Assembly (NCBI GenBank): GCA_000146045.2
Contig: BK006949.2
Location: forward strand, 352,001 to 416,000
Direction: 5' to 3'
Length of the DNA: 64,000 bases
Origin: TPA_inf: Saccharomyces
Lineage: Eukaryota
The notes beneath the pieces were generated by a model, which ran no database searches, was not told where the DNA came from, and saw nothing but the letters and a program-made list of their open reading frames with translations. Each line of letters opens with the position of its first letter. Position 1 is the stretch's first letter. The translations under genes and the position numbers were made by a program. Shown in pieces: positions 35,067 to 63,362 of this stretch.

Positions 35067-38000
35067 ATGACACCTGAAGCCAAGAAAAGGAAAAACCAAA
35101 AGAAGAAGTTGAAGCAAAAGCAAAAAAAAGCTGCTGAGAAAGCTGCTAGCCACAGTGAAGAACCACTTGAATTACCAGAAAGTACGATTAACAGCAGCTT
35201 CAACGACGACTCGGTGAACCGTACAGAATCTGACATAGCTTCAAAATCTGATGTTCCTCCGGTCTCATCATCTACCAATATCTCTCCGGCTAATGAAACA
35301 CAACTAGAAATACCTGATACTCAAGAATTGCATCATAAACTGCTCAACGACTCTGATCAACATGATATTACCGCGGACTCAAATGATTTGCCAGACAACT
35401 CAATCGTTGAACATGACTCTGTTATTACCCAAACAAAACCAGCCATGTCTCAAGAATACGAAGAGACTGCCGCTCACTTATCTTCGAGAAATCCATCGCT
35501 CGATGTAGTCGCGGGAGAACTTCACAATAATAATGAACATACCCAGAAAATTGCCGTATCCGCTGTGGAAGAGGATTCTTTCAATGAAGAAGAGGGTGAA
35601 AATCACGACAGCATAATAATTTCATCATTAAACGATGCTACCCCTTCTCAATATAATCATTTTCTCCCATCCGATGGCAATCTTCTTTCTCCAGAATTAT
35701 CTTCTGGTGATACGCCAACTCACAATGTTCCTCTAGGCACAAAAGACAATGAAATAAATGACGATGAGTATTGTAATGATAAGGAAATTAGTTTGAACGC
35801 AAATAATGTGCTTCCTGATGAACTTTCAAAGGAAGAAGATGAAAGATTAAAACTAGAAACGCATGTATCAACCGAAGAAAAGAAACAGGATATCGCTGAT
35901 CAGGAAACTGCAGAAAACTTATTTACGTCTAGTACAGAACCATCTGAGAATAAAATAAGAAATTCTGGTGATGATACCTCCATGTTGTTTCAAGATGACG
36001 AAAGTGATCAGAAGGTTCCATGGGAGGAAGATGTGAAGAAAGATTTTCATAATGAGAACACAAATAATACTCAAGAATCGGCACCGAACACAGATGATCG
36101 TGATAAGGGTTATGAAGGAAACGAAGCTTTGAAAAAGTCCGAAAGTTGTACAGCCGCGGACGAGAGGTCGTACTCTGAAGAAACTTCAGAAGATATCTTT
36201 CACGGACACGACAAACAGGTAGTTGAAGGCCAAAATGATTTCACTGGGAAAAATATTGAGAATGAAAGCCAGAAATTAATGGGGGAAGGGAATCATAAGT
36301 TACCGTTGTCTGCCGAAGCTGACATTATAGAACCTGGTAAGGATATTCAAGATCAAGCCGAGGATTTGTTTACGCAGAGCAGCGGAGACTTGGGAGAAGT
36401 TTTGCCATGGGAATCTACTGATAAAAACGCTGATGTAACGAGCAAATCCCAAGAGAAACATGAAGATTTATTTGCTGCTTCTGGAAACGATGAGAAACTT
36501 CCTTGGGAAGTTTCTGACGGTGAAGTATCATCGGGAAAGACGGAAAACAGCATGCAGACTAGTACTGAGAAAATAGCTGAGCAAAAGTTTTCGTTTTTGG
36601 AAAACGACGACGACCTTTTGGACGACGACGACAGCTTTTTGGCTTCTTCTGAGGAAGAAGACACAGTACCTAATACCGATAATACAACGAATTTAACCTC
36701 AAAACCAGTTGAAGAAAAAAAGGCTTCAAGATATAAACCTATTATCGAGGAGGAAGCAGGAATGCGTCAAGAGCAAGTTCATTTTACCAATACTACTGGC
36801 ATTGTAACACCGCAGCAGTTCCACGGTTTGACTAAAACTGGACTAGGCACCCCCAACCAACAAGTCAGTGTACCAAATATAGTTAGTCCTAAGCCTCCTG
36901 TGGTAAAAGACAATCGTTCAAATTTTAAGATAAATGAGGAGAAAAAGAAGTCTGATGCTTACGATTTTCCACTGGAAATTATTTCAGAAAGTTCCAAGAA
37001 GGGTCACGCAAAGCCGGTTGCCGTTCCTACTCAAAGGTTTGGCTCAGGGAATTCTTTTAGTTCTTTGGACAAACCAATTCCACAGAGCAGGAAAGGCTCT
37101 AATAACTCAAATAGGCCACCCGTGATCCCATTGGGGACGCAGGAGCCTCGATCTTCGAGAACTAACTCAGCGATCTCGCAATCTCCCGTTAATTATGCTT
37201 TCCCTAACCCATACAAAATTCAACAACTACAACAGGCTCCTATCCAATCAGGTATGCCTTTACCAAATACCAACATACCTCCCCCAGCATTAAAAGTGGA
37301 AACCACCGTTTCTGCTCCTCCAATTCGGGCAAGAGGGGTCAGCAATGCCTCCGTGGGAAGTTCAGCGTCTTTTGGTGCTAGACATGCAACACAGTACGGC
37401 CTCAATAACGGGGTACCTCCGGTTTCGCCATATGGTCAAGCTACCATAAATTTGCCAACTGCGAATAAGTATGCCCCCGTCTCTCCTACAGTTCAGCAGA
37501 AGCAATATCCATCAGTTGTGCAAAACCTTGGCGCTTCGGCCGTAAATACCCCCAATTTTGTAAAGACCCATAGAGGCCATACAAGCTCTATTAGTTCGTA
37601 TACACCAAACCAGAATGAACACGCCTCTAGATACGCACCCAACTATCAACAATCTTATCAGGTGCCATATACCTCACAACCTGTTGGTCCTGTAGCTGGG
37701 AATTCAAGCTATCAAAGCCAAACCCGAAGTTCTTATGCAGTTCCTATGATGCCCCAGGCTCAAACTTCAGCAAGTATTCAGCCTCACGCGAACATTCAAC
37801 CGCCTACTGGCATTTTACCTTTAGCCCCCTTACGACCTCTAGACCCCTTACAAGCCGCTACGAACTTGCAACCCCGTGCAAGCAACATAACGGCTGCAAA
37901 TTCACTACCTCTTGCAAATTTGCCACTTGCTGAAAACATACTGCCAGAAATTATCACGCATCGAGCTACAAGTAGTGTTGCACCACCACGACAGGAAAAT

Positions 38001-41000
38001 AATCCAATTAAAATAGACAACGAGGCTTTATTACGCCGTCAATTTCCGATTTTTCATTGGAGTGCTGCAAACAAGGTCGTGTACGCAGTCCCCCCTATCC
38101 CTGACCAATCGCAGTACATGATTTCATCAAGCATTGTACAGGAAATAAAAGTGACACCAATTGACCAGATAATTAAACCGAACGATATGCTCAAAAGCTT
38201 CCCAGGTCCTTTGGGTAGTGCCAAATTAAAAAAAAAGGATTTAACCAAATGGATGGAAACCACTATTAAATCCATATCTGAAAATGAATCATCCACTGAT
38301 ATGACTATATGGCAACTATTGGAAATGAAACTAAACGATAAAGTTAACTGGAAAAATATTTCAAAACTACTATACAATTCTGACGAACTTTTAATGTACC
38401 TATCTCAGCCCTTTCCAAACGGTGACATGATTCCAAATGCATATAGACTGGATATAAATTGTCAGATGAGAGTCCTGGCGTTCTTACAAACGGGAAATCA
38501 CGATGAGGCACTTCGCTTAGCTTTAAGCAAGAGGGATTATGCCATTGCACTATTGGTTGGCAGTTTAATGGGTAAAGACAGATGGTCTGAAGTCATTCAG
38601 AAATATTTATATGAAGGGTTTACTGCGGGGCCAAACGACCAAAAAGAATTGGCACACTTTCTGCTCCTTATCTTTCAAGTATTTGTTGGTAACTCCAAAA
38701 TGGCCATAAAAAGTTTCTACACTAATAATGAGACCAGTCAATGGGCATCCGAAAACTGGAAGAGTATCGTTGCAGCTGTTCTGATTAATATCCCAGAAAA
38801 TAATGAAGATCCACTACTTATACCACCTGTTGTCCTTGAATTTTTGATAGAGTTCGGTATATTCCTCACCAAAAAGGGCTTGACAGCCGCAGCTAGTACA
38901 TTATTTATTATTGGTAACGTACCACTTTCTAATGAGCCAGTAATGGCAGATTCAGACGTTATATTTGAAAGTATTGGAAACATGAATACTTTTGAAAGCA
39001 TTCTATGGGATGAAATCTACGAGTATATATTCTCGTATGACCCTAAATTCAAAGGATTTTCATCTATTTTGCCCCAGAAGATATACCATGCATCTCTTTT
39101 ACAAGAACAAGGTTTGAACAGCCTGGGGACAAAGTATACTGATTACCTCAGTTCCTCAGTTCGAAAACTGCCTAAGAAAGATATTTTAACAATAAACCTC
39201 ACTCGTGAATTGAGTGAGGTGGCTAGTAGGCTTTCCGAGTCTAATACAGGATGGCTTGCAAAACCAAAACTAAGCAGCGTATGGGGTCAATTAGATAAAT
39301 CCTTCAATAAATATATTGGTGGCGATGATATTGATGCATTGAATAAAAAAAATGATAAAAAGAAAGTTTTTGATGGGTTCACACCGGGATCTTCTGCCAA
39401 TTCGTCAACTGTGGATCTCACCCAAACATTCACACCTTTCCAAGCTCAAGTTACTTCGCAAAGCTATGTGGATACTACAGCTCTTTTGCATAATGCCCAT
39501 AATGTACCAAGCCATAGTGTGCTGCATTCAAAGCCTTCCAATGTGTCAAAGGGGTTAGTTGAAGCAAACTTACCGTATACGCATAGGATCGGTGATAGTT
39601 TGCAGGGATCTCCTCAGCGCATTCATAATACACAGTTCGCTGCTGCTGAGCCTCAAATGGCTTCTTTGAGAAGAGTTAGAACAGACCAGCATACAAACGA
39701 AAAGGCTTTGAAGAGTCAGCAGATTTTAGAGAAAAAGTCTACGGCCTACACTCCACAATTTGGACAGAACCATAGCGTTCCAATGGAAAAGTCTAATTCG
39801 AATGTGCCATCTTTATTTGCCGACTTCCCTGCTCCACCCAAACTTGGAACAGTGCCGTCTAATTATGTGTCTAGTCCTGACTTAGTAAGAAGGGAGTCTA
39901 TCATATCTACCGGATCAGAATTTCTTCCTCCTCCCAAAATTGGGGTACCTACTAAAGCTAATTCCTCGCAGGGATCGCTTATGTACTCACCAAGTGTGGA
40001 AGCTTTGCCTATCGACCCTGTCGTCCCGCAAGTTCATGAGACGGGATACAATGATTTTGGTAACAAACATTCTCAAAAAAGTATGCCTGAAGATGAATCT
40101 CACACATCACATGATAATAGCAATGCTGATCAAAATACATTAAAAGACTCTGCAGATGTTACAGATGAAACAATGGATATTGAAGGACCTGGCTTCAACG
40201 ATGTGAAGAATCTTCTTCCTATGGAGCCCAACCACCAGCCTACGTCTACAGTAAATCCTATACAAACTATTAGTGACGATATCCAACCGATTCTTCAAAC
40301 TAACGTGGAGGTCCGGGGTACTGATGCATCGAAAATGGAAAATTCACTTCCCTCCATTGAAAATGAAAGAAGTAGCGAGGAGCAGCCAGAAAACATTTCA
40401 AAATCAGCATCATCAGCATATTTACCATCAACTGGTGGATTGTCACTCGAAAACAGACCGCTAACTCAGGATGAAAACAGTATCTCAGAGACAGTTCAAT
40501 CCACATACTTGCCAGCAGGAAGTATTTCAATGGAAGCTAAACCAATTTCTCAAGTGCAAGATGTTCCAAGAAATGTTAATAATAAAGCATCCAAACTTGT
40601 GGAGCAACATATGGCACCACCAAAGCCAAAAAGTACTGACGCAACCAAAATGAACTACTCACCATACGTGCCTCAATCAACTGCCGCTAGTGCAGATGGC
40701 GATGAATCAACGATTCTGAAAACATCGCCTGCTATATATGCAAGAACTCACCAAGCACATGCATCCAATCCATCACAATACTTTCCTTTGGTCAACCAAG
40801 CAAATGAAACTGCTTCATTCGAATTATCTGAATCAACATCCCAGGCACAAAGTAATGGAAATGTTGCTTCAGAAAATAGATTCAGCCCAATAAAGAAAGC
40901 CGAAGTCGTCGAGAAAGACACTTTTCAACCTACTATTAGGAAGGCTTCAACTAACCAATACAGGGCTTTTAAACCGTTGGAATCAGATGCGGATAAATAC

Positions 41001-41654
41001 AATGACGTTATTGAAGATGAATCCGATGACGACAATATGTCTACTGATGAGGCAAAGAACAGAAAGGAAGAAAAAAAGAATGTGAATATGAAAAAGGAAA
41101 CAAAACCAAGTAACAAGGACATAGATGACAAGTCTAATGGTTGGTTTGGTTGGTTGAAGAAAGATACTGGCGACAAAAAAGTGTATAAGGCCAAGCTAGG
41201 TCATAAAAACACACTATACTATGATGAAAAATTGAAACGTTGGGTGAATAAGGACGCAACCGAAGAGGAAAAACAAAAAATTATTGAAAGTTCGGCACCA
41301 CCACCTCCTCCAATCGTGAAACGTAAAGATGGCGGCCCAAAGACAAAGCCACGTTCAGGCCCCATCAATAATTCCCTACCTCCAGTACATGCCACATCAG
41401 TTATTCCGAACAATCCAATCACTGGTGAGCCTTTGCCGATCAAAACATCCCCTTCTCCTACAGGACCCAATCCAAACAATTCTCCATCACCATCCTCTCC
41501 CATATCAAGGATTTCTGGCGTAAACTTGACTAGCAAAAAGGCAAACGGTTTGGATGATTTATTGAGTTTGGCAGGAGGACCCAAACCAGCAAGTACGAGA
41601 AGGAAGAAGAAAACAGCGAGAGGCTATGTTAATGTAATGGATAACATACAATAA
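35067..41654 (+). CDS. SEC16: COPII ER-exit-site scaffold protein (2195 aa)
   Basis: The track ORF starts at a GTG 3 codons upstream; ATG 35067 gives MTPEAKKRKNQKKKLKQKQKK... A huge, largely low-complexity acidic/Ser-Pro-rich protein with a central conserved domain. Length 2195 aa matches YPL085W. Confidence 0.9.
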   Translation: MTPEAKKRKNQKKKLKQKQKKAAEKAASHSEEPLELPESTINSSFNDDSVNRTESDIASKSDVPPVSSSTNISPANETQLEIPDTQELHHKLLNDSDQHDITADSNDLPDNSIVEHDSVITQTKPAMSQEYEETAAHLSSRNPSLDVVAGELHNNNEHTQKIAVSAVEEDSFNEEEGENHDSIIISSLNDATPSQYNHFLPSDGNLLSPELSSGDTPTHNVPLGTKDNEINDDEYCNDKEISLNANNVLPDELSKEEDERLKLETHVSTEEKKQDIADQETAENLFTSSTEPSENKIRNSGDDTSMLFQDDESDQKVPWEEDVKKDFHNENTNNTQESAPNTDDRDKGYEGNEALKKSESCTAADERSYSEETSEDIFHGHDKQVVEGQNDFTGKNIENESQKLMGEGNHKLPLSAEADIIEPGKDIQDQAEDLFTQSSGDLGEVLPWESTDKNADVTSKSQEKHEDLFAASGNDEKLPWEVSDGEVSSGKTENSMQTSTEKIAEQKFSFLENDDDLLDDDDSFLASSEEEDTVPNTDNTTNLTSKPVEEKKASRYKPIIEEEAGMRQEQVHFTNTTGIVTPQQFHGLTKTGLGTPNQQVSVPNIVSPKPPVVKDNRSNFKINEEKKKSDAYDFPLEIISESSKKGHAKPVAVPTQRFGSGNSFSSLDKPIPQSRKGSNNSNRPPVIPLGTQEPRSSRTNSAISQSPVNYAFPNPYKIQQLQQAPIQSGMPLPNTNIPPPALKVETTVSAPPIRARGVSNASVGSSASFGARHATQYGLNNGVPPVSPYGQATINLPTANKYAPVSPTVQQKQYPSVVQNLGASAVNTPNFVKTHRGHTSSISSYTPNQNEHASRYAPNYQQSYQVPYTSQPVGPVAGNSSYQSQTRSSYAVPMMPQAQTSASIQPHANIQPPTGILPLAPLRPLDPLQAATNLQPRASNITAANSLPLANLPLAENILPEIITHRATSSVAPPRQENNPIKIDNEALLRRQFPIFHWSAANKVVYAVPPIPDQSQYMISSSIVQEIKVTPIDQIIKPNDMLKSFPGPLGSAKLKKKDLTKWMETTIKSISENESSTDMTIWQLLEMKLNDKVNWKNISKLLYNSDELLMYLSQPFPNGDMIPNAYRLDINCQMRVLAFLQTGNHDEALRLALSKRDYAIALLVGSLMGKDRWSEVIQKYLYEGFTAGPNDQKELAHFLLLIFQVFVGNSKMAIKSFYTNNETSQWASENWKSIVAAVLINIPENNEDPLLIPPVVLEFLIEFGIFLTKKGLTAAASTLFIIGNVPLSNEPVMADSDVIFESIGNMNTFESILWDEIYEYIFSYDPKFKGFSSILPQKIYHASLLQEQGLNSLGTKYTDYLSSSVRKLPKKDILTINLTRELSEVASRLSESNTGWLAKPKLSSVWGQLDKSFNKYIGGDDIDALNKKNDKKKVFDGFTPGSSANSSTVDLTQTFTPFQAQVTSQSYVDTTALLHNAHNVPSHSVLHSKPSNVSKGLVEANLPYTHRIGDSLQGSPQRIHNTQFAAAEPQMASLRRVRTDQHTNEKALKSQQILEKKSTAYTPQFGQNHSVPMEKSNSNVPSLFADFPAPPKLGTVPSNYVSSPDLVRRESIISTGSEFLPPPKIGVPTKANSSQGSLMYSPSVEALPIDPVVPQVHETGYNDFGNKHSQKSMPEDESHTSHDNSNADQNTLKDSADVTDETMDIEGPGFNDVKNLLPMEPNHQPTSTVNPIQTISDDIQPILQTNVEVRGTDASKMENSLPSIENERSSEEQPENISKSASSAYLPSTGGLSLENRPLTQDENSISETVQSTYLPAGSISMEAKPISQVQDVPRNVNNKASKLVEQHMAPPKPKSTDATKMNYSPYVPQSTAASADGDESTILKTSPAIYARTHQAHASNPSQYFPLVNQANETASFELSESTSQAQSNGNVASENRFSPIKKAEVVEKDTFQPTIRKASTNQYRAFKPLESDADKYNDVIEDESDDDNMSTDEAKNRKEEKKNVNMKKETKPSNKDIDDKSNGWFGWLKKDTGDKKVYKAKLGHKNTLYYDEKLKRWVNKDATEEEKQKIIESSAPPPPPIVKRKDGGPKTKPRSGPINNSLPPVHATSVIPNNPITGEPLPIKTSPSPTGPNPNNSPSPSSPISRISGVNLTSKKANGLDDLLSLAGGPKPASTRRKKKTARGYVNVMDNIQ

Positions 41655-46479: not shown

Positions 46480-49400
46480 TTATCGTAAAGTTTTGATGAA
46501 GGTGTCTAAATTATACTCCTCCTCGTATTGAGATGGGTCCCATAGCTCTTTCAATTCACCGAGGGCCTCTTTGGCTTTGCCAGTTAAACCAGTCTCGTTG
46601 GCAATATCTTCCATGCCCTTGGCTGCTTGGGAATCGCCATTATTCTTTTCCTCATTGTCCTGTGAGGTAACGTTATCGGGGTCGAAGAGATCAAGCAGCT
46701 GATGTGTATCCATGGATGCTAATCCACTGTTTTGCTGATTAACAACTGTAGAAGCTATATTCATTTTGAATTTCTGCAAACCCATGATTTTTTCTTCAAG
46801 CGTACCTTTCGTAATAATTCTGTAAACATTAACAACCTTTTTCTGACCAATTCTATGTGCTCTGTCCATTGCCTGTAGATCATTCATTGGATTCCAGTCA
46901 TGCTCTACAAAAATGACGGTGTCTGCACCAGTTAAATTCAGACCCAGCCCTCCGACCTTGGTGGTCAACAGTAGGCAATCAATAGAGGGATCTTCGTTAA
47001 ATTTCCGAACAACTTTTTGTCTGTCTCTTGGGTCAATGCTTCCATCTAGCCTCATATAGGTTACGGAGGGCATATACTTTTTAAACAAGTCATTTTCAAC
47101 CATGTCTAGCATATCTTTTAGTTGGCAGAAAATCAGGGCTCTGTGTTGTGATATGACATTTTGAATAGGAAAATTCTGATCTTGGCTTGCTTTTTTGTCG
47201 ATATCTTCTTCACCTATACCACATTCAAAGAGTAATGTTCTCAATGCGCTCAGTTTTGGAGCGTTGATAATATCGTGTAAATCTAGACCAGTTTGCTTTA
47301 AATAGTCTTGTACTTGCGCTAATTGCGGGTGATTTGGTGAAAGGACCAAAGCTGGATGATTACACAATTTTCTCATGTATTGTAAAGCTTGGAAAATATG
47401 TTGCTTGCCATCAGCAATCTCAGAATTTTCAATATCTTTCTCAACTACATTTTTTTGTTTTTTAGTAAAATCCATGTATAGTTGTTTTTGTAAATCACCT
47501 AATTCACAGTAGTAATCCTGAATAATTTTAGGTGGTAAATCAGATAGAACGTCTTCCTTCAATCTTCTCAGCATGAAAGGTAGAACTTGCTTATGTAGTG
47601 CCTCCAAAGCCAGTACACCTGCTTCCTGCTCCTTAGATGATGTTTTACTATTTCTTGACGCAGCGATTGGCTTTGCGAACCTTTCCTGGAACATCTTTTC
47701 CGTTCCCAAAAATCCCGGCATTAAGAAGTCAAACAGAGACCACAATTCTAAAACGTTGTTTTGGATGGGAGTTCCGGTTAAAATTAATCTATGGTTTGCA
47801 GTAATTTCTTTAACAGCCTTAGCAAGTTTTGATTGAGAGTTTTTAATTATATGTCCTTCATCCAAAACACAATAATTATATTCAGTTTTGTTTAGGACTG
47901 CGAGATCATTTCTAGCTACGTCATATGATGTTACAATAATATCAGCATCACTTAACTGTGGTCTCAGAGTTAATCTGACAGTTGGGCCACCGGCATACAC
48001 AACAACCTTTAAAAAGGGAGCATACTGGTCAAACTCGTTTTCCCAATGGCCAGTTAAAGATGGGGGGCATATTATGAGAGATGGTAAGGCTCTACTTTCA
48101 ACAGAACGCGTTTTTTCATAATCTTCCTTCCTCAAATATTGATCGCTTGCGATAATGCAGATGGTTTGTAATGTTTTACCCAAACCCATATCGTCACACA
48201 ATATTCCATGTAGATGATATTTGTTCAGGAATGCCAACCAGTTAACACCATCTTGCTGATATTTTCTTAAAGTCGCCTTGATGGCAATGGGTAATTTAAA
48301 TGGCTTAGCTTTAGAAGGATCCATCATTTGTTGGATAAAATCACGCTCCCTCTCTCTGCTTGCCACTAGTTCTTCTGGGAGTCCTTTTGGATCGGCGATA
48401 CCAGCTTCTAAAGGAACTAATTTGATGATAGAAGCAAATGTTGTTGTAGCTAAATTCCTCACATCTTCGTTCGAATCACTCATGCGACCCAAAAGTGGAA
48501 CTATTAAGAAAATGACGTAAGGTAGAACATCGGTTTCCATAGAAAGTGATAAATGATAAATAAGCTCCGTGGACCCTTGACGATCGGATAGAGAACCAGC
48601 GCTATTCATTAAAGGCAAAATCTCACGTATGGTGTAAGCCATTACCTCCACGGAGGAAATTTTAGCCAGATCAGCAAAAGTTCTTGCAGCTGAATAACGA
48701 AAAACAGATAAGTTTGATCTTAAGAACGTTAATAAAACAGGGAAACGGGTAAAAACCTCACTAGAACGTAGCGAATCAGACATAAATGGGAATAGAGCTC
48801 TTAGTACACCAAATGAGTCGACTATTTTTTGACCTTGCTCGTTGTCAACTTTACTTGCTTCCTCATTTTCATGATCAGATAATGAATCAAATAAAATCGA
48901 TCTAAGCTGAGGTAGTTTCTGTAATATAGAAGGCCCAAGAACTTCAAATAGTATTTTTAACGTAATCAACCCACCCTTCCTTTTTAGTTGAGCCTCTTCC
49001 GACATCTTTGCGAGATTAATGTCATCTTGTGCGGCAATCGAATTAGATTCTTTTATTAACGTCAATATTTTTTCTTTATATTCTGCATTTACGGAGAAAT
49101 CAGGAACTTCTGAAGTATCAACGCATAAAAATCCGCAGAGATTTTTGACTATCTTACCAGACACATTAACTTTATTATTTTCTAACAGTTGCTGAATCAA
49201 ATGTACGACCGATTCTCCGGCCATCGTTTGTAACTTTTCATTCCTTTCTTCTTTAACACTGTCCATTAGCGACCTGATAATGGGGTTTAATTTAAGAGGT
49301 AGACCATCAAATAACAAGATGGATGATGCGTAATTAGCGAGAATGCTGCCTGTACGAAGTTTTGCGGATTCTTTGGCTGAATTGATTGCCATCAACACGC

Positions 49401-52083
49401 GATGCTTAGAATCTTCTAATGGCTTCTTGGCCAATAGTTTGTAAGAGTTGTTCATGGATTTGAACATTTTATCATAGTATTCGCCGTACACTTTTTCTGC
49501 TGTTTCAACACCAAACGCATGTGGACCGGCTTCTGTTTCGCCTTGAACCACAATTGCTACGTTGGGTAGTTTGTACTGAGGTAACATACCTACATCCACA
49601 AAGGTAGCCAGTAGGCTTTGACATTGAGTCCTCAGAGCTTTTAAGCTAGGTACTAGCTCCCTAAATACAGGAAATTCATCGCGATTCAGTAACTGTTTAT
49701 TCATCACAGGACTGAAAATCTCTGATACAAAAGAAGGTAATTTTTCCCCTTCTGGATGCTTTTGTAACCACGAGGAGCAAAACTGTGAAACAATAATGCC
49801 TGCCAACATACGTGGAGTTGAGAATGGCAGCTCTAAACAACGAACCAGAACGTTTGTGAAGAAGGATTGAAGCGTGGAATCTTGAAACATTGACAATGTC
49901 AAAGCAAATGCCTTTGCTCCCATTATTCTAGTGTTCAATATTACGTCCAATCCTAGCAAAGTAATATCTCCAGCAATCATAGGTGCATCGATATTGATAT
50001 GTTCATTATTTTTTGGTATTGGAATGTCAGAATCTGTTGTGGTTTCAGATATAGAACGTTTTTTTTCTGGATGTAATTGATAGTGCTGGGAAGGCTTTAG
50101 AATATATTGTGATTCCATGGCATAATTCTTTCCCTTTTCCCCTACTGGCGTATTTAGAAGATGTAGTATTGGCTGCAAATGTTTACTGAAAACATGATCT
50201 AAAGTTTTTTCGGTATGCTTAACTTTATAATGCTCCAATAACGCAACATAAACATCAAAAGACAGTTGCAATAGTTCCGGGTTTTGCTCCAGTAAAATAT
50301 TCTGAAAAACTAGACGGAATACCTTGCCGTTTAACCAGTTTTTAGTAGAATCATCCTTTATTGATAAGAATGCAATCAGTAGATTCAAAACAGCCCTCCT
50401 CACAGAAGAAATCGAATGGCGTAAAAAGGGATACAATTTCGGTACCAGTGACTTGAATGACCACTCTGAAGGATGCTCTAAAGCCTTGTTCTTTAAAATA
50501 TCTAGTACTTCTTGGTGGTCGCACAACTTTGCCAATAGATCCATTATAGAACCTACGCTTGAAGATATATCATCATCTAAACGAGCTAGTAATGACCATA
50601 TCGTGGTCACCAAAATTTCTATGGTAGAGTTGTTTAATTTGACAAATTCGCTGGTTATTGGGGTTAAAATTGAGGCTGCTACGCTTTGAACGTCATCATC
50701 ACTTTGGTTTAAACCATATAGCACTATACGGACAACGTTTTCTAAAAGGCCATGGGCAAATAGGAAATTTGTCTTTATGCTGACGAAGTAACGAATCCCT
50801 AAAAGCCCTCCATGGGTAGCTTCCCATATTTTGTTCGGTAGACCTGTTTGTAGTGGATCTTGTAGAACCAGTTGTTCTAAACAATTAAATATTTTAATTG
50901 ATAAGGTACTGTCTAGGTGAATTAATAACGCAGCTAGAGTTTGCGCAACTGACTCTCGTACAGGGGCCACAACTGTATCATAAACATAATCACCAAATCT
51001 ATCCAATGCAAATACTGTAAGTAGACGGGACGCCAAGTCTTCTAAGCTTCTAGAATTCCTCAGGTTGTTCTCCTCTCGGGTATTCCCCTTAACCCTGCTG
51101 ACTCCATAAGCATGTTTTTTTACCAATTCTCGAAGACCCAACGCAGCTCCATGCCTTATTTCCCAATTTTCGCTCATTAGATTATCTAAAAGTAGTTCAT
51201 AAATGCCTTGGAATTGCCAAACTAGGCCAGCAACAATTTCGTGTTGTTCTAGCAATGGCCTTACTGTGGATTCTATCATTAGTTTACTTTCATCGGCTTG
51301 TTCAGTAATCTCCAGTTTGGGATTTAGCTGGTTACTGGTGGGAGAAGTGGCTAGCGATGCAGCAGAATTGGTCATATTTTTTCCATTTAATAAAGTCTTG
51401 GAAACTGAACTTTCCGTTATATCTACAGGATGTTTGGGAGTATTCTTAGCACTCATTTTCTTTTTTCGCCTTGCCATAGCAAGCATCCTTGCTGACTTCT
51501 TGTTAGCATTACTTTTATTTTCATTCGCCTTATCAGACGCATTTAGCATAGATGTTTCCTGTTTTATATCATCAGTTTTAGCTTGTTTTCTTATATTATC
51601 GTCAGCCTTACCAAGAACATTGTAATCATTCATACTCGACGCCAGGAGCACTTTACCTGACTTTAAAATTTCGTTCAATTTCCAATCAGACAGAGAACTG
51701 AGGTGATGGTCCTCCTGTAAGAGATTCAACTGATTGTTCTGAGTAGCCTCTTCCAATTTTATTTTCATTTCATGTTCCAACTTCACCTGAGCATTATCCA
51801 ATGGAGAACCTTCATTTGTACCACCTACCAAGTCAGATTCATTCGGATCCCAAGAAGGAGCATGGGCAACTATGCCACCCACAGCTCTTGCTGCAGTAAC
51901 ACGCGTTTCCCATTTCTTCACTAGTAAAAAGGGGTAAACTCTGGACAGCAACGAAAGAATGTCTTCGGGGTGCTGTTTGGCCAAGTCTCCCATTTGATCG
52001 GCAGCCATGTTCCGGACTACTTGGGTGGAACCGGTCTCTATTAATATTACCTGCCGGTCCAGCCTCGAAACTCGTGACGTCAT
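46480..52083 (-). CDS. MOT1: Swi2/Snf2-family ATPase that removes TBP from DNA (1867 aa)
   Basis: ORF from ATG 52083. N-terminal HEAT repeats; C-terminal SNF2 helicase motifs (DEGHIIKN, ILCDDMGLGKTLQ, LLTTKVGGLGLNLTGADTVIFVEHDWNP). Length matches YPL082C. Confidence 0.96.
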   Translation of the reverse strand: MTSRVSRLDRQVILIETGSTQVVRNMAADQMGDLAKQHPEDILSLLSRVYPFLLVKKWETRVTAARAVGGIVAHAPSWDPNESDLVGGTNEGSPLDNAQVKLEHEMKIKLEEATQNNQLNLLQEDHHLSSLSDWKLNEILKSGKVLLASSMNDYNVLGKADDNIRKQAKTDDIKQETSMLNASDKANENKSNANKKSARMLAMARRKKKMSAKNTPKHPVDITESSVSKTLLNGKNMTNSAASLATSPTSNQLNPKLEITEQADESKLMIESTVRPLLEQHEIVAGLVWQFQGIYELLLDNLMSENWEIRHGAALGLRELVKKHAYGVSRVKGNTREENNLRNSRSLEDLASRLLTVFALDRFGDYVYDTVVAPVRESVAQTLAALLIHLDSTLSIKIFNCLEQLVLQDPLQTGLPNKIWEATHGGLLGIRYFVSIKTNFLFAHGLLENVVRIVLYGLNQSDDDVQSVAASILTPITSEFVKLNNSTIEILVTTIWSLLARLDDDISSSVGSIMDLLAKLCDHQEVLDILKNKALEHPSEWSFKSLVPKLYPFLRHSISSVRRAVLNLLIAFLSIKDDSTKNWLNGKVFRLVFQNILLEQNPELLQLSFDVYVALLEHYKVKHTEKTLDHVFSKHLQPILHLLNTPVGEKGKNYAMESQYILKPSQHYQLHPEKKRSISETTTDSDIPIPKNNEHINIDAPMIAGDITLLGLDVILNTRIMGAKAFALTLSMFQDSTLQSFFTNVLVRCLELPFSTPRMLAGIIVSQFCSSWLQKHPEGEKLPSFVSEIFSPVMNKQLLNRDEFPVFRELVPSLKALRTQCQSLLATFVDVGMLPQYKLPNVAIVVQGETEAGPHAFGVETAEKVYGEYYDKMFKSMNNSYKLLAKKPLEDSKHRVLMAINSAKESAKLRTGSILANYASSILLFDGLPLKLNPIIRSLMDSVKEERNEKLQTMAGESVVHLIQQLLENNKVNVSGKIVKNLCGFLCVDTSEVPDFSVNAEYKEKILTLIKESNSIAAQDDINLAKMSEEAQLKRKGGLITLKILFEVLGPSILQKLPQLRSILFDSLSDHENEEASKVDNEQGQKIVDSFGVLRALFPFMSDSLRSSEVFTRFPVLLTFLRSNLSVFRYSAARTFADLAKISSVEVMAYTIREILPLMNSAGSLSDRQGSTELIYHLSLSMETDVLPYVIFLIVPLLGRMSDSNEDVRNLATTTFASIIKLVPLEAGIADPKGLPEELVASRERERDFIQQMMDPSKAKPFKLPIAIKATLRKYQQDGVNWLAFLNKYHLHGILCDDMGLGKTLQTICIIASDQYLRKEDYEKTRSVESRALPSLIICPPSLTGHWENEFDQYAPFLKVVVYAGGPTVRLTLRPQLSDADIIVTSYDVARNDLAVLNKTEYNYCVLDEGHIIKNSQSKLAKAVKEITANHRLILTGTPIQNNVLELWSLFDFLMPGFLGTEKMFQERFAKPIAASRNSKTSSKEQEAGVLALEALHKQVLPFMLRRLKEDVLSDLPPKIIQDYYCELGDLQKQLYMDFTKKQKNVVEKDIENSEIADGKQHIFQALQYMRKLCNHPALVLSPNHPQLAQVQDYLKQTGLDLHDIINAPKLSALRTLLFECGIGEEDIDKKASQDQNFPIQNVISQHRALIFCQLKDMLDMVENDLFKKYMPSVTYMRLDGSIDPRDRQKVVRKFNEDPSIDCLLLTTKVGGLGLNLTGADTVIFVEHDWNPMNDLQAMDRAHRIGQKKVVNVYRIITKGTLEEKIMGLQKFKMNIASTVVNQQNSGLASMDTHQLLDLFDPDNVTSQDNEEKNNGDSQAAKGMEDIANETGLTGKAKEALGELKELWDPSQYEEEYNLDTFIKTLR

Positions 52084-58442: not shown

Positions 58443-59285
58443 ATGACAAGATCTCCCTGGAAGCGCCTACTATGGTTGAAACAGGAGTACCCAGATAATT
58501 ATACAGATCCAAGTTTTATTGAGTTGAGAGCAAGACAAAAGGCTGAGAGTAACCAGAAGTCTGATAGAAAATTATCAGAAGCTGCTCGCGCTCAAATTAG
58601 GTTGGATTTTATAAGTTTCTACCAAACCATATTGAACACTTCTTTCATTTACATCACTTTTACATATATTTACTATTATGGCTTCGATCCTATTCCGCCA
58701 ACTATTTTCCTTTCATTTATAACATTGATTATATCAAGGACGAAAGTCGACCCTCTATTGTCCTCATTCATGGACGTAAAGTCTTCGCTGATTATCACAT
58801 TTGCAATGTTGACTCTCTCTCCAGTCCTCAAATCTCTTTCTAAAACAACTGCATCTGATTCCATATGGACATTGTCTTTTTGGCTGACCCTATGGTACAT
58901 TTTCGTTATTTCGTCAACAAAGTCCAAAGATAAACCCTCTAACCTTTCCACCAATATACTTGTCGCCCTTGTTGCTGTCCTATCATCGAGGCTTTCGACC
59001 ACAATCGACGTATTCTGTTTTCTTTTAATTTGTATTCAGTTGAATATCATTCTACCCACTTATTTATCGGTGACGAATAAGGTAGTACCAATAATTTCAA
59101 ATATTATTGTATACTCATTTTTGAATGTTGCTCTAGGTTGGATTTATATGCTGTTGATTTTCTTTGCTTCAGTATTTTATATTACTGTTTTACCTAAGTG
59201 GTTCATCTACTGGAAAATCAATTATCATAAACGGGATAACGATCTACTAAGTACATGGGATGCAAGAACACCAATATTGGATTAG
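58443..59285 (+). CDS. GPI2: GPI-GlcNAc transferase subunit (280 aa), PIG-C homologue
   Basis: ORF from ATG 58443 (MTRSPWKRLLWLKQEYPDNYTDPSFIE...). Multi-pass membrane protein. Length matches YPL076W. Confidence 0.9.
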   Translation: MTRSPWKRLLWLKQEYPDNYTDPSFIELRARQKAESNQKSDRKLSEAARAQIRLDFISFYQTILNTSFIYITFTYIYYYGFDPIPPTIFLSFITLIISRTKVDPLLSSFMDVKSSLIITFAMLTLSPVLKSLSKTTASDSIWTLSFWLTLWYIFVISSTKSKDKPSNLSTNILVALVAVLSSRLSTTIDVFCFLLICIQLNIILPTYLSVTNKVVPIISNIIVYSFLNVALGWIYMLLIFFASVFYITVLPKWFIYWKINYHKRDNDLLSTWDARTPILD

Positions 59286-60253
59286 CGCAATCAAGAACAT
59301 GATTTCCTTCGGATAAGCAAGGGAGGGGTACGACTTCTGCCCGCAGGGGCTTATTGCCTGTCCTCTTCCTCGACCCCACGGTATTTCATTATATATAGAG
59401 TCACTGTAATAATAATTATCATGAAACCTGACAAGCAAAGGCGTCGGGCAATTACCAAAGGGCAGTTCGGTCGATTAAGTTTGCTTCACTACAGATTATT
59501 CACATATCATACGACAACTTTAAAATTGAACATTCAGGAGATTTTTGAATGCATTGATGGGCCCTTGCACCTTAACCGGGTCCCAATATTAGAGAAACGC
59601 CCCCTTAAACTGAACACAAGACAATACTACCTGGCCAATAGGGTACAATTTGCGGCCGTGTTAAACAGGCGTTTCAGCGTCTACCGCTCCTAATTTAAAG
59701 TCACTTGTTTCTTGGTAGCAGCAGCTTCCTGTTTTCTTCTTTTTGGCACTTGGTTATGTGATAATATCACCCGGATGAGAAACCTTTAAAATAAGCGTTT
59801 GGGAGGGGAAAAAGTGCAGTAACTGTCACAAATTTAACAAACAATTTGTTCACAAGTTTTGCCTTATCGTTCATCACATGTTATTTTTTTCAATCTAGCC
59901 AAAGTATCTAAAGAAGAATTTTCGTCTCTCTTGTGCCTTCTCATAATGTTCAATTAAGATGCAGACGGCTTTGACATGTCATTAATTTACTGAATTTCTG
60001 ACACTTCCCCACGATATTTATCATTTTTTACGTAATTAAGATTTAAACTCCGTACACCCGGCTTCCACAAATGTAGAATTTTCCGGAGCTTCGAACTTCT
60101 TGTTTCACGAATTAAAAGCATCCAACGTAGAACCACCCAACTCATCTTCCTAATGCTGAAGCTTCATCGGTAAACAAACCACAGTTAATAGCGAGAAAGT
60201 CGGCAAGTGACAAACGACGGTTATATTTAATTGGCCTTTGATATATATTGAAA

Positions 60254-60261
60254 ATGGTATG
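60254..60261 (+). CDS. GCR1: GCR1 exon 1 (ATGGTATG; encodes Met-Val plus the first two nt of a Cys codon)
   Basis: ATGGTATG is followed by 5'SS GTATGA at 60262. Joining to exon 2 gives [25 protein letters not shown]..., the known Gcr1 N-terminus. Confidence 0.85.
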
Positions 60262-61012
60262 GTATGATCATAACACGCATTCTGAAAATGTTATCTGGGA
60301 GGTTTTCGATGGGTATGGAGTTTTCCTTGATTCTCACTTATTATCCCTTGTATTGTAATTGATCCTTCAGTAATATTTGCAGCCTTTCACAACTATCCTT
60401 TTTTTCATTGCTTATTACTATTGAACCTTTTTTAGGAGTTGCCTGCTTATGCAATATAATTTGCTGACAAGTAGTAAATTACCAGCACAATATTAAGATT
60501 AAAAAAGAAATTAGCCAAGAGCTTGATATATTATCTTATACACAAACCTTTCCGACCTACTTGATAAAGCCACATACCTCTACCTCTTCTATTAGAAATA
60601 GAAAAGTACAAAAATAGCAAAAGGAAATAATTTCTTTAAAATAACATTGTGTGAGGTTCCAACTATGGATTATTAATAGAGTAACGCAAACTTAAGGAAA
60701 GGAAGTGCTTTACAATTAAGTATTTATAAGAACGAATTTATCCCCCAAAAAAAAGCACCTATACTTAATAAAAGGAGGGGAATAGCTATCAATTGAGTGT
60801 TGTCTGCGTCTGTCTGCGTACAAGAGGATGAATTTTCTGACTCAGGCTATGTCAGAAACTTTTCAAGGGACAAATAACAGGATAAAACGTAATGTCAGGA
60901 CACAAAGTGTGCCATCAACTTCCTATAATAATGGCAAAGAATCATATGGACCAAATACTAACCAATTAAATGCCCTACTTTCTCAATTGGAACAGCAAAC
61001 AAGTGTTGATAG
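60262..61012 (+). other. GCR1: spliceosomal intron of GCR1 (751 nt, unusually long for yeast)
   Basis: 5'SS GUAUGA; branch point TACTAAC at 60956-60962, about 50 nt upstream of the 3'SS; 3'SS GATAG ends at 61012. The 751-nt length agrees with the known GCR1 intron. Confidence 0.88.
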
Positions 61013-63362
61013 TACCAGCACGAGCTCAAACTTTTATTCCATTGCACAATATATTTTACAATCATACTTCAAGGTCAATGTAGATTCTCTAAACTCTCTG
61101 AAATTGGTGGATTTGATAGTGGACCAAACTTACCCTGATTCTTTGACGCTGCGAAAGCTGAATGAAGGAGCAACGGGACAACCATACGATTATTTCAATA
61201 CAGTTTCTCGTGATGCTGATATCTCCAAGTGTCCAATTTTTGCGTTGACCATATTTTTTGTTATACGATGGAGCCACCCAAACCCTCCAATTTCAATTGA
61301 GAATTTTACTACAGTACCGTTGCTAGATTCAAACTTTATTTCTCTAAATTCCAATCCTTTACTATATATTCAAAATCAAAACCCAAACAGCAATTCAAGT
61401 GTTAAAGTTTCAAGGTCACAAACGTTTGAACCTTCTAAAGAGTTGATCGATTTGGTATTTCCATGGCTGTCTTATTTGAAGCAGGATATGCTTCTTATTG
61501 ATAGGACGAATTACAAGCTTTATTCTCTCTGTGAACTATTTGAATTTATGGGCAGGGTTGCCATTCAGGATCTCCGATATCTGAGTCAACATCCCTTATT
61601 ACTACCCAATATCGTAACATTCATTTCAAAATTTATTCCTGAGTTATTCCAAAACGAAGAGTTTAAAGGAATCGGTTCAATTAAAAATTCAAACAATAAT
61701 GCCCTGAACAATGTTACAGGAATAGAAACCCAATTTTTAAATCCATCTACCGAGGAAGTGAGTCAAAAAGTTGATTCTTACTTTATGGAATTATCAAAAA
61801 AATTAACTACAGAAAATATCAGGTTAAGTCAAGAAATAACACAACTAAAAGCAGATATGAACTCCGTAGGCAATGTTTGTAACCAAATTTTGCTGTTGCA
61901 GAGACAATTGCTTTCAGGAAATCAGGCGATCGGATCAAAGTCCGAAAATATTGTGTCTTCCACAGGTGGGGGGATATTAATACTAGATAAAAATAGCATC
62001 AATTCGAACGTACTGAGTAATTTGGTTCAGTCGATAGATCCTAATCACTCCAAGCCCAACGGACAAGCCCAAACACATCAAAGGGGTCCGAAAGGACAAT
62101 CACATGCACAGGTTCAAAGTACTAATAGCCCTGCGCTAGCGCCAATTAACATGTTCCCGAGCTTAAGTAATTCTATACAGCCGATGCTTGGCACCTTGGC
62201 TCCGCAACCGCAAGATATAGTACAGAAGAGGAAGCTACCGTTACCAGGTTCAATAGCCTCTGCAGCAACAGGCAGTCCTTTTTCTCCATCACCCGTTGGT
62301 GAGTCTCCCTATAGCAAACGCTTTAAACTAGACGATAAACCAACTCCGTCTCAGACGGCTCTTGATTCCTTACTTACAAAATCCATTTCAAGCCCTAGAT
62401 TACCCCTTTCGACGTTGGCTAACACAGCTGTCACGGAATCTTTTCGCTCACCTCAGCAGTTTCAGCATTCTCCAGATTTTGTAGTTGGTGGTAGCTCAAG
62501 TTCAACAACGGAAAATAACTCTAAGAAGGTAAATGAAGATTCTCCATCATCTTCTTCAAAACTAGCTGAACGACCTCGTCTTCCAAACAACGACTCCACT
62601 ACTAGCATGCCTGAAAGTCCCACCGAGGTAGCTGGTGATGATGTTGATAGGGAGAAACCGCCAGAGTCAAGTAAGTCGGAGCCCAATGATAACAGCCCAG
62701 AATCGAAAGATCCTGAGAAAAATGGTAAAAACAGTAATCCGCTTGGTACGGATGCTGACAAACCAGTACCAATTTCTAATATTCATAATTCTACTGAGGC
62801 TGCAAATTCAAGTGGTACAGTGACAAAGACAGCTCCATCATTTCCGCAGAGTTCTTCTAAGTTTGAAATTATAAATAAAAAGGATACGAAGGCGGGGCCA
62901 AACGAGGCAATCAAATACAAGCTGTCCAGAGAAAATAAAACAATATGGGACCTATATGCGGAGTGGTATATTGGTCTGAACGGTAAATCTTCAATAAAAA
63001 AATTGATTGAAAATTATGGCTGGCGAAGGTGGAAGGTTAGCGAAGATTCACATTTTTTTCCTACTAGAAGAATTATTATGGATTATATTGAAACGGAATG
63101 TGATCGTGGCATAAAACTCGGCAGGTTTACTAATCCTCAACAACCGAGGGAGGATATACGGAAGATTTTAGTAGGGGACCTAGAAAAGTTCAGGATAAAT
63201 AACGGTCTGACTCTGAATTCTCTATCATTGTACTTTAGAAATTTAACGAAAAATAACAAGGAAATTTGTATTTTTGAAAACTTTAAAAATTGGAACGTTA
63301 GATCAATGACAGAAGAAGAGAAATTAAAGTATTGCAAAAGGCGACATAATACACCATCTTAA
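61013..63362 (+). CDS. GCR1: GCR1 exon 2; glycolytic-gene transcriptional activator, total 785 aa
   Basis: Exon 2 begins T ACC AGC ACG AGC (completing Cys, then TSTSS). It ends at a stop after ...[11 protein letters not shown]. 8 + 2350 nt gives 785 codons plus stop, matching YPL075W. Confidence 0.9.

What the first reader, a model, noticed from the sequence alone, without database searches (positions are those of the whole stretch)
60254..61200. GCR1 has a 751-nt intron after an 8-nt first exon, and an intronic in-frame ATG that reads through the 3' splice site
Exon 1 is only ATGGTATG, and the intron is 751 nt against a typical yeast intron of 100-400 nt. An ATG at 60828 inside the intron is in frame with exon 2. 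There is no stop between it and the 3'SS at 61012, so an intron-retained mRNA would encode a Gcr1 variant with a 62-aa alternative N-terminus ([23 protein letters not shown]...), and this is why the track ORF is 844 rather than 785 aa. From memory, translation of unspliced GCR1 from an intronic start and its importance for Gcr1 function have been reported, so this is recognition of a known oddity, not a discovery.
Basis: partly seen in the sequence, partly recalled or inferred. Interest (0 to 1): 0.5.

Follow-up and report, generated by a model that had tools for sequence, protein, structure and literature searches.

The report
GCR1 intron with internal start codon
This is the well-studied yeast GCR1 gene, whose long intron holds a conserved start codon, so unspliced RNA makes a longer form of the glycolysis regulator Gcr1; the features are real, but both they and their function are already published.

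Summary
Every coordinate in the finding checks out. There is an ATG at 60254, the annotated 8-nt exon 1, and a 751-nt GTATGA...TAG intron (60262-61012) with TACTAAC at 60956. An intronic ATG at 60828 is open into exon 2, giving 844 aa against 785 aa when spliced. The protein is Gcr1 (Pfam GCR1_C; 1-9 substitutions from the S. cerevisiae entries read).

Comparison with five other Saccharomyces genomes shows the intronic reading frame is a real coding sequence. It has no indels, an excess of third-position changes (p=0.003), and dN/dS of 0.08-0.52 in frame against about 0.7-4.5 out of frame.

One correction is needed. Published RT-PCR and cDNA-sequencing work shows the annotated 8-nt-exon/751-nt-intron product is a minor form. 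The major spliced mRNA uses GUAUGG at 60257, so exon 1 is only ATG, and CAG ending at 60995. That gives a 739-nt intron and a 789-aa protein. Five distant Saccharomycetaceae orthologues all carry ATG followed directly by GTATG, which agrees with this.

The unspliced-form protein (Gcr1U, with a 55-aa extra domain that blocks dimerisation) is published (Hossain 2016; Cha 2020). Whether both forms are needed is disputed. Verdict: a correct recognition of a known oddity, of low interest.

The parts
60254..60256 (+). Exon-1 start codon. It is the whole of exon 1 in the major spliced form (Gcr1S). Context AAAATGG.
   Evidence: Invariant in 6 Saccharomyces. ATG directly followed by GTATG in 5 distant Saccharomycetaceae. 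Kawashima 2014 and Cha 2020.
60254..60261 (+). Annotated 8-nt exon 1 (ATGGTATG), used by the minor Gcr1A form.
   Evidence: literature.
60257..60262 (+). 5' splice site GUAUGG, the major one.
   Evidence: in frame only with CAG at 60995, giving 789 aa. Invariant..
60262..60267 (+). 5' splice site GUAUGA, the annotated and minor one. With CAG it gives an NMD substrate.
60313..60318 (+). Alternative intronic 5' splice site GUAUGG, 51 nt downstream of the annotated one.
   Evidence: Not invariant: GTGTGG in S. kudriavzevii and GCATGG in L001.
60257..60995 (+). Intron of the major spliced mRNA, 739 nt.
   Evidence: Cha 2020.
60262..61012 (+). Annotated intron, 751 nt.
60783..60785 (+). Nearest in-frame stop (TAG) upstream of the intronic ORF. 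It makes 60828 the first possible start of that frame.
   Evidence: Other species have a stop 6 or 45 nt upstream.
60828..60830 (+). Intronic start codon of Gcr1U, with A at position -3.
   Evidence: Invariant in 6 Saccharomyces..
60828..60995 (+). The 56 codons specific to the unspliced form (the USS domain, MNFLTQ...SQLEQ). They lie inside the intron and are under purifying selection.
   Evidence: No gap columns; variable sites by codon position 8/8/21 (p=0.003); dN/dS 0.08-0.52 in frame against 0.7-4.5 out of frame. Cha 2020.
60956..60962 (+). Branch point TACTAAC, embedded in the codons AAT-ACT-AAC (Asn-Thr-Asn) of the USS frame.
   Evidence: Invariant. The same xxT-ACT-AAC arrangement occurs in Nakaseomyces, Vanderwaltozyma and Kazachstania.
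60970..60972 (+). [quoted passage not shown]
   Evidence: Not conserved.
60993..60995 (+). Major 3' splice site CAG. It is also a Gln codon of the USS frame and lies 34 nt from the branch A.
   Evidence: An in-frame CAG occurs at the homologous place in the distant orthologues..
61010..61012 (+). Annotated 3' splice site UAG (minor), 51 nt from the branch A.
60828..63362 (+). Gcr1U open reading frame, 844 aa plus stop.
   Evidence: GCR1_C domain at residues 697-763. 844-aa entries in many S. cerevisiae assemblies.
61013..63362 (+). Annotated exon 2, including the stop codon.

Best explanation
This locus is S. cerevisiae GCR1 (YPL075W), which makes at least three proteins from one gene by using or skipping a long intron that overlaps coding sequence.

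Spliced forms. Splicing from GUAUGG (60257) to CAG (60995), with branch point UACUAAC at 60956, joins a 3-nt exon (just AUG) to the body of the gene. This gives Gcr1S, 789 aa, the major spliced product. The staggered pair GUAUGA (60262) and UAG (61012) is the database model and gives Gcr1A, 785 aa, a minor product. Mixing the two pairs shifts the frame, and those products are degraded by NMD.

Unspliced form. RNA that keeps the intron sequence is translated from the conserved AUG at 60828 into Gcr1U, 844 aa. Its 55 extra N-terminal residues (the USS domain) prevent homodimerisation. As a result Gcr1U works as a monomer with a Gcr2 dimer, while Gcr1S works as a homodimer.

Shared signals. The branch point and the major 3' splice site are also the Thr-Asn and Gln codons of the longer protein, so the last quarter of the intron is under both coding and splicing constraint.

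Basis of each step:
- Shown here from sequence: all signals, frames and lengths; purifying selection on the intronic ORF; conservation of the ATG|GTATG micro-exon.
- Taken from the literature: which isoforms are abundant, that the proteins exist, and the USS function.
- Inferred and unsettled: how ribosomes reach AUG 60828.
For: - Sequence anatomy. Translating all 12 combinations of 5' and 3' splice sites leaves three in frame with the exon-1 AUG. Two of them are the reported products of 789 aa and 785 aa; the third (60313 + 61012, 802 aa) was not found reported in the papers read. The set also reproduces the published 42-aa frameshift product.
- Gene identity. Synteny.
- Coding constraint on 60828-60995 in 6 Saccharomyces genomes: 0 gap columns against 68 of 455 in the mid-intron. 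Third-position excess 21/37, p=0.003. dN/dS 0.08-0.52 in frame against 0.68-4.5 in the wrong frames.
- Chance of an open frame of this length: 0.6-2%.
- Conservation of signals: both tandem 5' splice sites, the branch point, CAG and UAG are invariant.
- Distant orthologues: T. globosa, Z. rouxii, N. bracarensis, V. polyspora and a Kazachstania all have ATG followed directly by GTATG, 137-890 nt upstream of a long ORF whose N-terminus is homologous to USS. The three post-WGD species also have an in-frame TACTAAC and CAG.
- Literature: Kawashima 2014, PMC3983031. Cha 2020, PMC7826247, including two protein bands on Western blots. Hurtig 2020, PMC7491326. Ribosome footprints reported over the GCR1 intron in the preprint PMC12026737.
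Against: No RNA or protein data could be analysed here, so isoform abundance, translation from 60828 and the USS function all rest on published work. The primary paper (Hossain 2016) could not be read.

Eight AUGs, seven of them invariant across Saccharomyces, precede 60828 on a full-length unspliced transcript. They include the strong-context exon-1 AUG, which opens a 34-codon uORF. Simple scanning on an intron-retained mRNA is therefore problematic.

Unspliced GCR1 RNA is also reported to be an NMD target.

Purifying selection on USS is clearly weaker than on exon 2 (dN/dS about 0.25 against 0.04).
Confidence: 0.9

Rival explanations
1. The mRNA that encodes Gcr1U is not a retained-intron version of the full transcript. 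It starts at a promoter inside the intron, so AUG 60828 is simply its first AUG. On this reading 'intron retention' would really be use of an alternative transcription start.
For: Eight AUGs lie between the exon-1 start and 60828, seven of them invariant in six species. The exon-1 AUG has an optimal context and opens a 10-34-codon uORF on unspliced RNA. A TATA-like element at about 60717-60730 and an A-run at 60745-60753 sit 75-110 nt upstream of 60828. [quoted passage not shown] Full-length unspliced RNA is an NMD target.
Against: Cha 2020 and Hurtig 2020 describe the published model (Hossain 2016) as translation of the unspliced transcript. The 45 nt just upstream of 60828 are no better conserved than the mid-intron, at 40% variable. 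The TATA-like element differs in every species and matches the consensus only loosely. No transcription-start data could be consulted.
Confidence: 0.3
2. The annotated model is the principal gene product: an 8-nt exon 1, a 751-nt intron and a 785-aa protein. This is what the first reader assumed.
For: It is the database annotation. 785-aa entries exist for several S. cerevisiae strains and for S. mikatae (785 aa) and S. kudriavzevii (784 aa). GTATGA and TAG are invariant across Saccharomyces, and the combination is in frame.
Against: RT-PCR, cloning and sequencing found this product 'at very low levels', with the GUAUGG/CAG product as the main one. Cha 2020 concurs. Four of five distant orthologues have only ATG|GTATG with no second staggered site, so an 8-nt exon is impossible there. 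One S. uvarum annotation is already 789 aa.
Confidence: 0.07
3. The intronic open frame has no protein-level function. Retention of the intron only lowers GCR1 output, through NMD of unspliced and mis-spliced RNA.
For: Five of the alternative spliced products and the unspliced RNA are NMD substrates. Genome-edited strains making only Gcr1S grow like wild type in every condition tested.
Against: The frame shows coding-type constraint across Saccharomyces, and its N-terminal sequence is homologous to the annotated N-termini of orthologues in other genera. Two protein bands are seen in wild type, and the USS domain changes the oligomeric state and the dependence on Gcr2.
Confidence: 0.05

Closest known systems
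Gcr1U / Gcr1S / Gcr1A isoforms of S. cerevisiae GCR1 (Hossain et al. 2016 Mol Cell; Kawashima et al. 2014 PLoS Genet; Cha et al. 2020 NAR)
   Same: It is the same locus. All published coordinates map onto the window: 5' splice sites 5 nt upstream and 51 and 627 nt downstream of the annotated one; 3' splice sites 40 and 17 nt upstream of the annotated one; a 739-nt major intron; products of 789, 785 and 844 aa; the N-terminal change VCT to QTSVDST; and a 42-aa frameshift product.
   Different: Nothing substantive. The window's protein carries Leu at residue 356 (297 in the 785-aa numbering), where the 15 other S. cerevisiae entries compared have Gln.
GCR1 orthologues in Saccharomycetaceae with an intron and an intronic AUG (Hurtig et al. 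2020 RNA, Fig. 10)
   Same: The architecture is shared: a micro-exon ATG, a GTATG 5' splice site, a long ORF starting inside the intron, and in the post-WGD species a branch point and CAG embedded in that ORF.
   Different: The tandem staggered 5' splice sites (GTATGGTATGA) were seen only in Saccharomyces and one Kazachstania. In the pre-WGD species the homologous codons read TTCTAAC or TGCTAAC rather than TACTAAC, so splicing there is unproven. Hurtig reports no intron in K. lactis.
Other yeast genes in which intron sequence is translated: PTC7 (intron-retained isoform), APE2 (start codon inside the annotated intron), SRC1 (staggered 5' splice sites)
   Same: Two proteins come from one gene by reading intron sequence as coding. 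Like SRC1, GCR1 has staggered 5' splice sites.
   Different: In PTC7 the retained intron is read through from the upstream exon. In GCR1 translation starts inside the intron, because exon 1 supplies only the AUG. Hub1, which controls SRC1 site choice, has no effect on GCR1.

Membership tests
S. cerevisiae GCR1 (YPL075W) gene | Encodes a protein with the GCR1_C DNA-binding domain that is near-identical to Gcr1p. | tested here: met
   PF12550 at E=1.2e-15, residues 697-763. One to nine substitutions relative to the S. cerevisiae 844-aa and 785-aa entries.
S. cerevisiae GCR1 (YPL075W) gene | Genomic neighbourhood GPI2 - GCR1 - AAA ATPase (YTA6). | tested here: met
   Orthologous loci in S. mikatae, S. 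kudriavzevii, S. uvarum and S. eubayanus show a GPI2-domain gene upstream and an AAA gene downstream. The window has a 280-aa ORF at 58443-59285 in the GPI2 position, but it was not itself scanned against Pfam.
Canonical budding-yeast spliceosomal intron | A GUAUGN 5' splice site, a UACUAAC branch point, a YAG 3' splice site, and a branch-to-3'SS distance of about 10-60 nt. | tested here: met
   GTATGG at 60257 and GTATGA at 60262; TACTAAC at 60956; CAG at 60995 (34 nt); TAG at 61012 (51 nt). All are invariant in 6 species. Position 6 of both 5' splice sites departs from the GUAUGU consensus.
Canonical budding-yeast spliceosomal intron | The intron is actually removed in vivo at these sites. 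| not testable with these tools
Retained-intron protein isoform with an intronic start codon (Gcr1U type) | An in-frame AUG inside the intron with no stop codon before the downstream exon. | tested here: met
   ATG at 60828, 844-aa ORF, upstream stop at 60783.
Retained-intron protein isoform with an intronic start codon (Gcr1U type) | The intronic ORF evolves as coding sequence. | tested here: met
   No indels, third-position excess p=0.003, dN/dS 0.08-0.52 against about 1 or more in the wrong frames. Homologous N-termini in other genera.
Retained-intron protein isoform with an intronic start codon (Gcr1U type) | The protein is made in cells from the intronic AUG. | not testable with these tools
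   Literature: two TAP- or Flag-tagged bands in wild type and one in each edited strain. Ribosome footprints on the intron in preprint PMC12026737.
Database gene model (8-nt exon 1, 751-nt intron) as the main product | This junction is the predominant spliced junction. | tested here: not met
   This could only be checked against the literature and by comparative sequence, since no RNA data were available. Kawashima 2014 detected the product 'at very low levels' and Cha 2020 calls it minor. Four of five distant orthologues lack a second staggered 5' splice site.

The most novel reading that the evidence does not exclude
The ratio of Gcr1U to Gcr1S might be set by RNA structure or by promoter choice rather than by simple weak splicing.

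(a) RNA structure. A Saccharomyces-invariant long-range helix could pair the tandem 5' splice sites (60248-60276) with the annotated 3' splice site and the start of exon 2 (61005-61031). Its duplex energy is -17.8 kcal/mol. This helix would hide the 5' splice sites from U1. A second helix (60337-60348 with 60866-60881) would shorten the distance from the 5' splice site to the branch point.

(b) Promoter choice. Alternatively, or in addition, Gcr1U mRNA may start at a promoter inside the intron.

Neither idea is established in the papers I could read.
Probability: 0.2. Interest if true: 0.4.

Novelty: already known. Interest (0 to 1): 0.12.

Why it matters
GCR1 is the textbook example in budding yeast of one gene producing two functionally different transcription factors by splicing or not splicing. 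Gcr1 controls glycolytic gene expression, so the isoform balance bears on the switch between fermentation and respiration.

For a genome scan the practical lessons are these. The 844-aa ORF is a real product and not an annotation error. The reference gene model shows the minor splice form. A 3-nt first exon, as in the major form, is invisible to most gene finders.

None of this is new. It has been published since 2014-2020.

Tried and rejected
- Papers not available: the primary paper (Hossain 2016, PMC5117908 / PMID 27153533) and the original cloning paper (Holland 1987, PMC365139) are not held. What they show is cited second-hand through Cha 2020, Hurtig 2020 and Kawashima 2014.
- Known RNA families: an Rfam gathering-threshold scan and a tRNA scan of the whole window found nothing, so the intron hosts no known snoRNA or other RNA family.
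- Inverted repeats: the scan of 60200-61100 gave only 9-16-nt arms. The perfect 10-nt pair 60225-60234 / 60962-60971 is not maintained in S. mikatae or S. uvarum (alignments), so I dropped it.
- Long-range helices: RNAalifold on the six-species alignment predicted two. Their pairs almost never vary, and the covariation score is reached by 101 of 500 shuffles. Their duplex energies fall only in the top 0.3-3% of shuffled or other windows, and stronger chance duplexes exist elsewhere in the gene. In five distant species the equivalent pairing ranks in the top 2-20% of windows, which is not convincing. I kept this as a hypothesis only.
- Literature on transcription starts: searches for a transcription start inside the intron found only Hurtig's remark.
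- CT-box at 60146: it is not conserved, so I did not count it as a candidate autoregulatory site.
Full report
**1. Is the observation in the sequence?** Yes, exactly as described.
- The plus strand reads ...GAAAATGGTATGGTATGATC..., with ATG at 60254-60256.
- With ATGGTATG (60254-60261) as exon 1, the intron 60262-61012 is 751 nt. It begins GTATGA and ends TAG. It contains the only TACTAAC of the region, at 60956-60962.
- The spliced CDS is 785 codons ([11 protein letters not shown]...).
- ATG 60828 is in the exon-2 frame and open to the stop at 63360-63362, giving 844 aa. The nearest in-frame stop upstream is TAG at 60783.
- The first 62 residues replace MVC of the annotated protein, so 844 = 62 + 782 and 785 = 3 + 782. 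This explains why a plain ORF finder reports 844 aa.
- The frame has 0 stops in 62 codons, against 4 and 7 in the other two frames of the same stretch and 7-17 per 188 codons further upstream in the intron. Markov-simulated intron sequence stays open that long in only 0.6-2% of trials.

**2. What gene is it?**
- The ORF carries the Pfam GCR1_C domain (E=1.2e-15).
- Its closest database relatives are S. cerevisiae Gcr1 entries of 844 or 785 aa, differing by 1-9 substitutions.
- Orthologous loci in S. mikatae, S. kudriavzevii, S. uvarum and S. eubayanus share the GPI2 - GCR1 - AAA-ATPase gene order.

The start of the gene holds two staggered 5' splice sites, GTATGG at 60257 and GTATGA at 60262. 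The end of the intron holds two 3' splice sites, CAG ending at 60995 and TAG ending at 61012.

I translated all 12 combinations of the published 5' and 3' sites. Three keep the exon-1 AUG in frame:
- GUAUGG + CAG: exon 1 is just ATG, the intron is 739 nt, and the protein is 789 aa ([12 protein letters not shown]...).
- GUAUGA + UAG: the annotated 785 aa.
- GUAUGG at 60313 + UAG: 802 aa. I did not find this one reported in the papers I read.

The crossed combinations terminate after 31 and 42 codons.

This reproduces the literature in detail. By RT-PCR, cloning and sequencing, Kawashima et al. 2014 (PMC3983031) found the annotated product 'at very low levels'. The GUAUGG/CAG product was the main spliced mRNA. 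The crossed products are NMD substrates, one of them frameshifted until the 43rd codon. An AUG at the position I map to 60970-60972 serves as a 3' splice site without Prp18. Cha et al. 2020 (PMC7826247) name the three proteins Gcr1S (789 aa, major spliced), Gcr1A (785 aa, minor) and Gcr1U (844 aa, from the intronic AUG).

So the '8-nt exon / 751-nt intron' is the reference annotation but not the main biology. The first exon of the main mRNA is 3 nt long.

**4. Independent comparative test.** I fetched the orthologous DNA of five other Saccharomyces genomes and aligned it.
- Invariant in all six: the motif ATGGTATGGTATGAT, the intronic ATG, TACTAAC, CAG and TAG.
- The alternative 5' splice sites at 60313 and 60889 and the AUG 3' site are not all conserved.

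| Measure | 60828-60995 | Mid-intron | Exon 2 |
|---|---|---|---|
| Gap columns | 0 | 68 of 455 | 0 |
| Variable columns | 21% | 41% | 21% |

- Variable sites in the intronic ORF fall 8/8/21 by codon position (binomial p=0.003). Exon 2 gives 10/4/47 and the upstream intron is flat at 69/55/52.
- Nei-Gojobori dN/dS is 0.08-0.52 in the Gcr1U frame and 0.68-4.5 in the two wrong frames. Exon 2 gives 0.03-0.05.

The intronic ORF is therefore real coding sequence under purifying selection, though weaker than on the body of the protein. The many 844-aa entries from independent S. cerevisiae assemblies point the same way within the species.

**5. Deeper phylogeny.**
- Annotated Gcr1 orthologues of Torulaspora, Zygosaccharomyces, Nakaseomyces, Vanderwaltozyma and Kazachstania have N-termini homologous to the USS region. 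They start MNF.../MNL... and carry a ...N(Q/K)L..L..Q(D/E)Q... motif before SSNFY.
- In all five, an ATG followed immediately by GTATG lies 137-890 nt upstream of that long ORF's start.
- In the three post-WGD species a TACTAAC sits in the ORF as xxT-ACT-AAC (Thr-Asn codons). An in-frame CAG (Gln codon) follows it, as in S. cerevisiae.
- Only Kazachstania shares the tandem GTATGGTATGA, so the 3-nt exon appears to be the ancestral arrangement.
- The pre-WGD species have TTCTAAC or TGCTAAC at the homologous codons, so splicing there is uncertain.
- This agrees with Hurtig et al. 2020 (PMC7491326). [quoted passage not shown]

**6. How it works.**
- Shown here: the anatomy, the frames and the selective constraint.
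- From the literature: wild-type cells show two Gcr1 bands, and each genome-edited single-isoform strain shows one. The 55 extra residues (USS) block homodimerisation, even in trans, so Gcr1U acts as a monomer with a Gcr2 dimer and Gcr1S acts as a homodimer without Gcr2. Unspliced RNA dominates in early growth and spliced RNA rises toward the diauxic shift. Ribosome footprints over the intron are reported in a preprint.
Plasmid experiments (Hossain 2016, as cited) found both isoforms necessary. CRISPR-edited strains making only one isoform grew normally under all conditions tested.
- Unsettled: on an unspliced transcript that starts upstream of exon 1, eight AUGs precede 60828, seven of them invariant across Saccharomyces. 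The exon-1 AUG has an optimal AAAAUGG context and opens a 34-codon uORF. Unspliced RNA is also an NMD target. Either reinitiation or leaky scanning is needed, or much of the Gcr1U mRNA begins inside the intron. Hurtig et al. raise the second possibility, and I could not test it.

**7. Side analyses.**
- No Rfam family or tRNA lies in the intron or anywhere else in the window.
- RNAalifold predicts a helix pairing the 5' splice-site cluster with the annotated 3' splice site and the start of exon 2. It predicts a second helix that would bring the 5' splice site and the branch point closer.
- Both helices can form in all six species. But the pairs hardly vary, covariation is not significant, the energies are only moderately unusual, and distant species give no clear support.
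- One supporting hint is that the 17 nt 60996-61012 have 1 variable column, against about 21% elsewhere in the coding sequence. The overlapping splice signals could explain that equally well.

**8. Verdict.** The interpretation needs three refinements: which splice form is the major one, the disputed need for both isoforms, and the unresolved route to the intronic AUG. Novelty: already known. Interest is low.

Noticed in passing
window 60248-60276 with 61005-61031; 60337-60348 with 60866-60881: Two predicted long-range RNA helices. The first pairs the tandem 5' splice sites with the annotated 3' splice site and the start of exon 2 (-17.8 kcal/mol). The second would shorten the distance from the 5' splice site to the branch point (-13.7 kcal/mol). 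It shows one A-U/G-C swap between clades, but S. cerevisiae itself has A.C there. Both can form in all six Saccharomyces. Covariation is not significant and the energies are only in the top 0.3-3% of controls.
   Followed up: partly
window 59725-59729, 60062-60066, 60119-60123 (promoter); 60050-60253: Three cores of the Gcr1 binding motif (CT box: CTTCC, CTTCC, CATCC) upstream of GCR1 itself are invariant in six Saccharomyces species. The roughly 200 nt before the start codon are almost invariant. This suggests autoregulation and/or a functional 5' leader. A fourth CTTCC at 60146 is not conserved.
   Followed up: partly
window 60313 (5'SS) joined to 61012 (3'SS): Joining the alternative intronic GUAUGG at 60313 to the annotated UAG would keep the exon-1 AUG in frame and give an 802-aa protein (MVWYDHNTHSENVIWEVFDG-TSTSS...). 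The papers I read report only the 60313 + CAG product, which has a premature stop.
   Followed up: no
window 61893-61895 (codon 356 of the 844-aa ORF; residue 297 of the 785-aa form): The window encodes Leu (NQILLLQRQ). All 15 other S. cerevisiae Gcr1 entries compared have Gln, as do the orthologues from other genera (..QILQLQRQ..). This looks like a lineage-specific substitution.
   Followed up: no
window 60665-60680: A conserved mid-intron block, CTATGGATTA(C/T)TAATA. The five other Saccharomyces genomes read TACTAAT, which resembles a branch point. S. cerevisiae has TATTAAT. It could be a decoy or former branch site, and it also contains one of the invariant upstream AUGs.
   Followed up: no
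window 61347-61664 (residues 174-279 of the 844-aa ORF): A sub-threshold Pfam match to NDC10_II, the centromere protein Ndc10 domain 2 (E=6.3e-5, 22.6 bits against a 26.3-bit cutoff). The same family is precomputed for many orthologues, which hints at a shared fold in the N-terminal half of Gcr1.
   Followed up: no
L007 1864-2200, L011 1811-2200 (T. globosa, Z. rouxii): Pre-WGD orthologues annotated as intronless long ORFs still have an upstream ATG followed directly by GTATG in a strong context, at -137 and -190 nt. They also have an in-frame CAG. The branch-point position reads TTCTAAC or TGCTAAC. Whether these are spliced is unknown.
   Followed up: partly
whole window 1-64000: No tRNA gene and no Rfam family at gathering threshold anywhere in the 64 kb. 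There are 25 ORFs of 200 aa or more, including very long ones at 35058-41654 (+) and 46480-52083 (-). None of these was examined.
   Followed up: no
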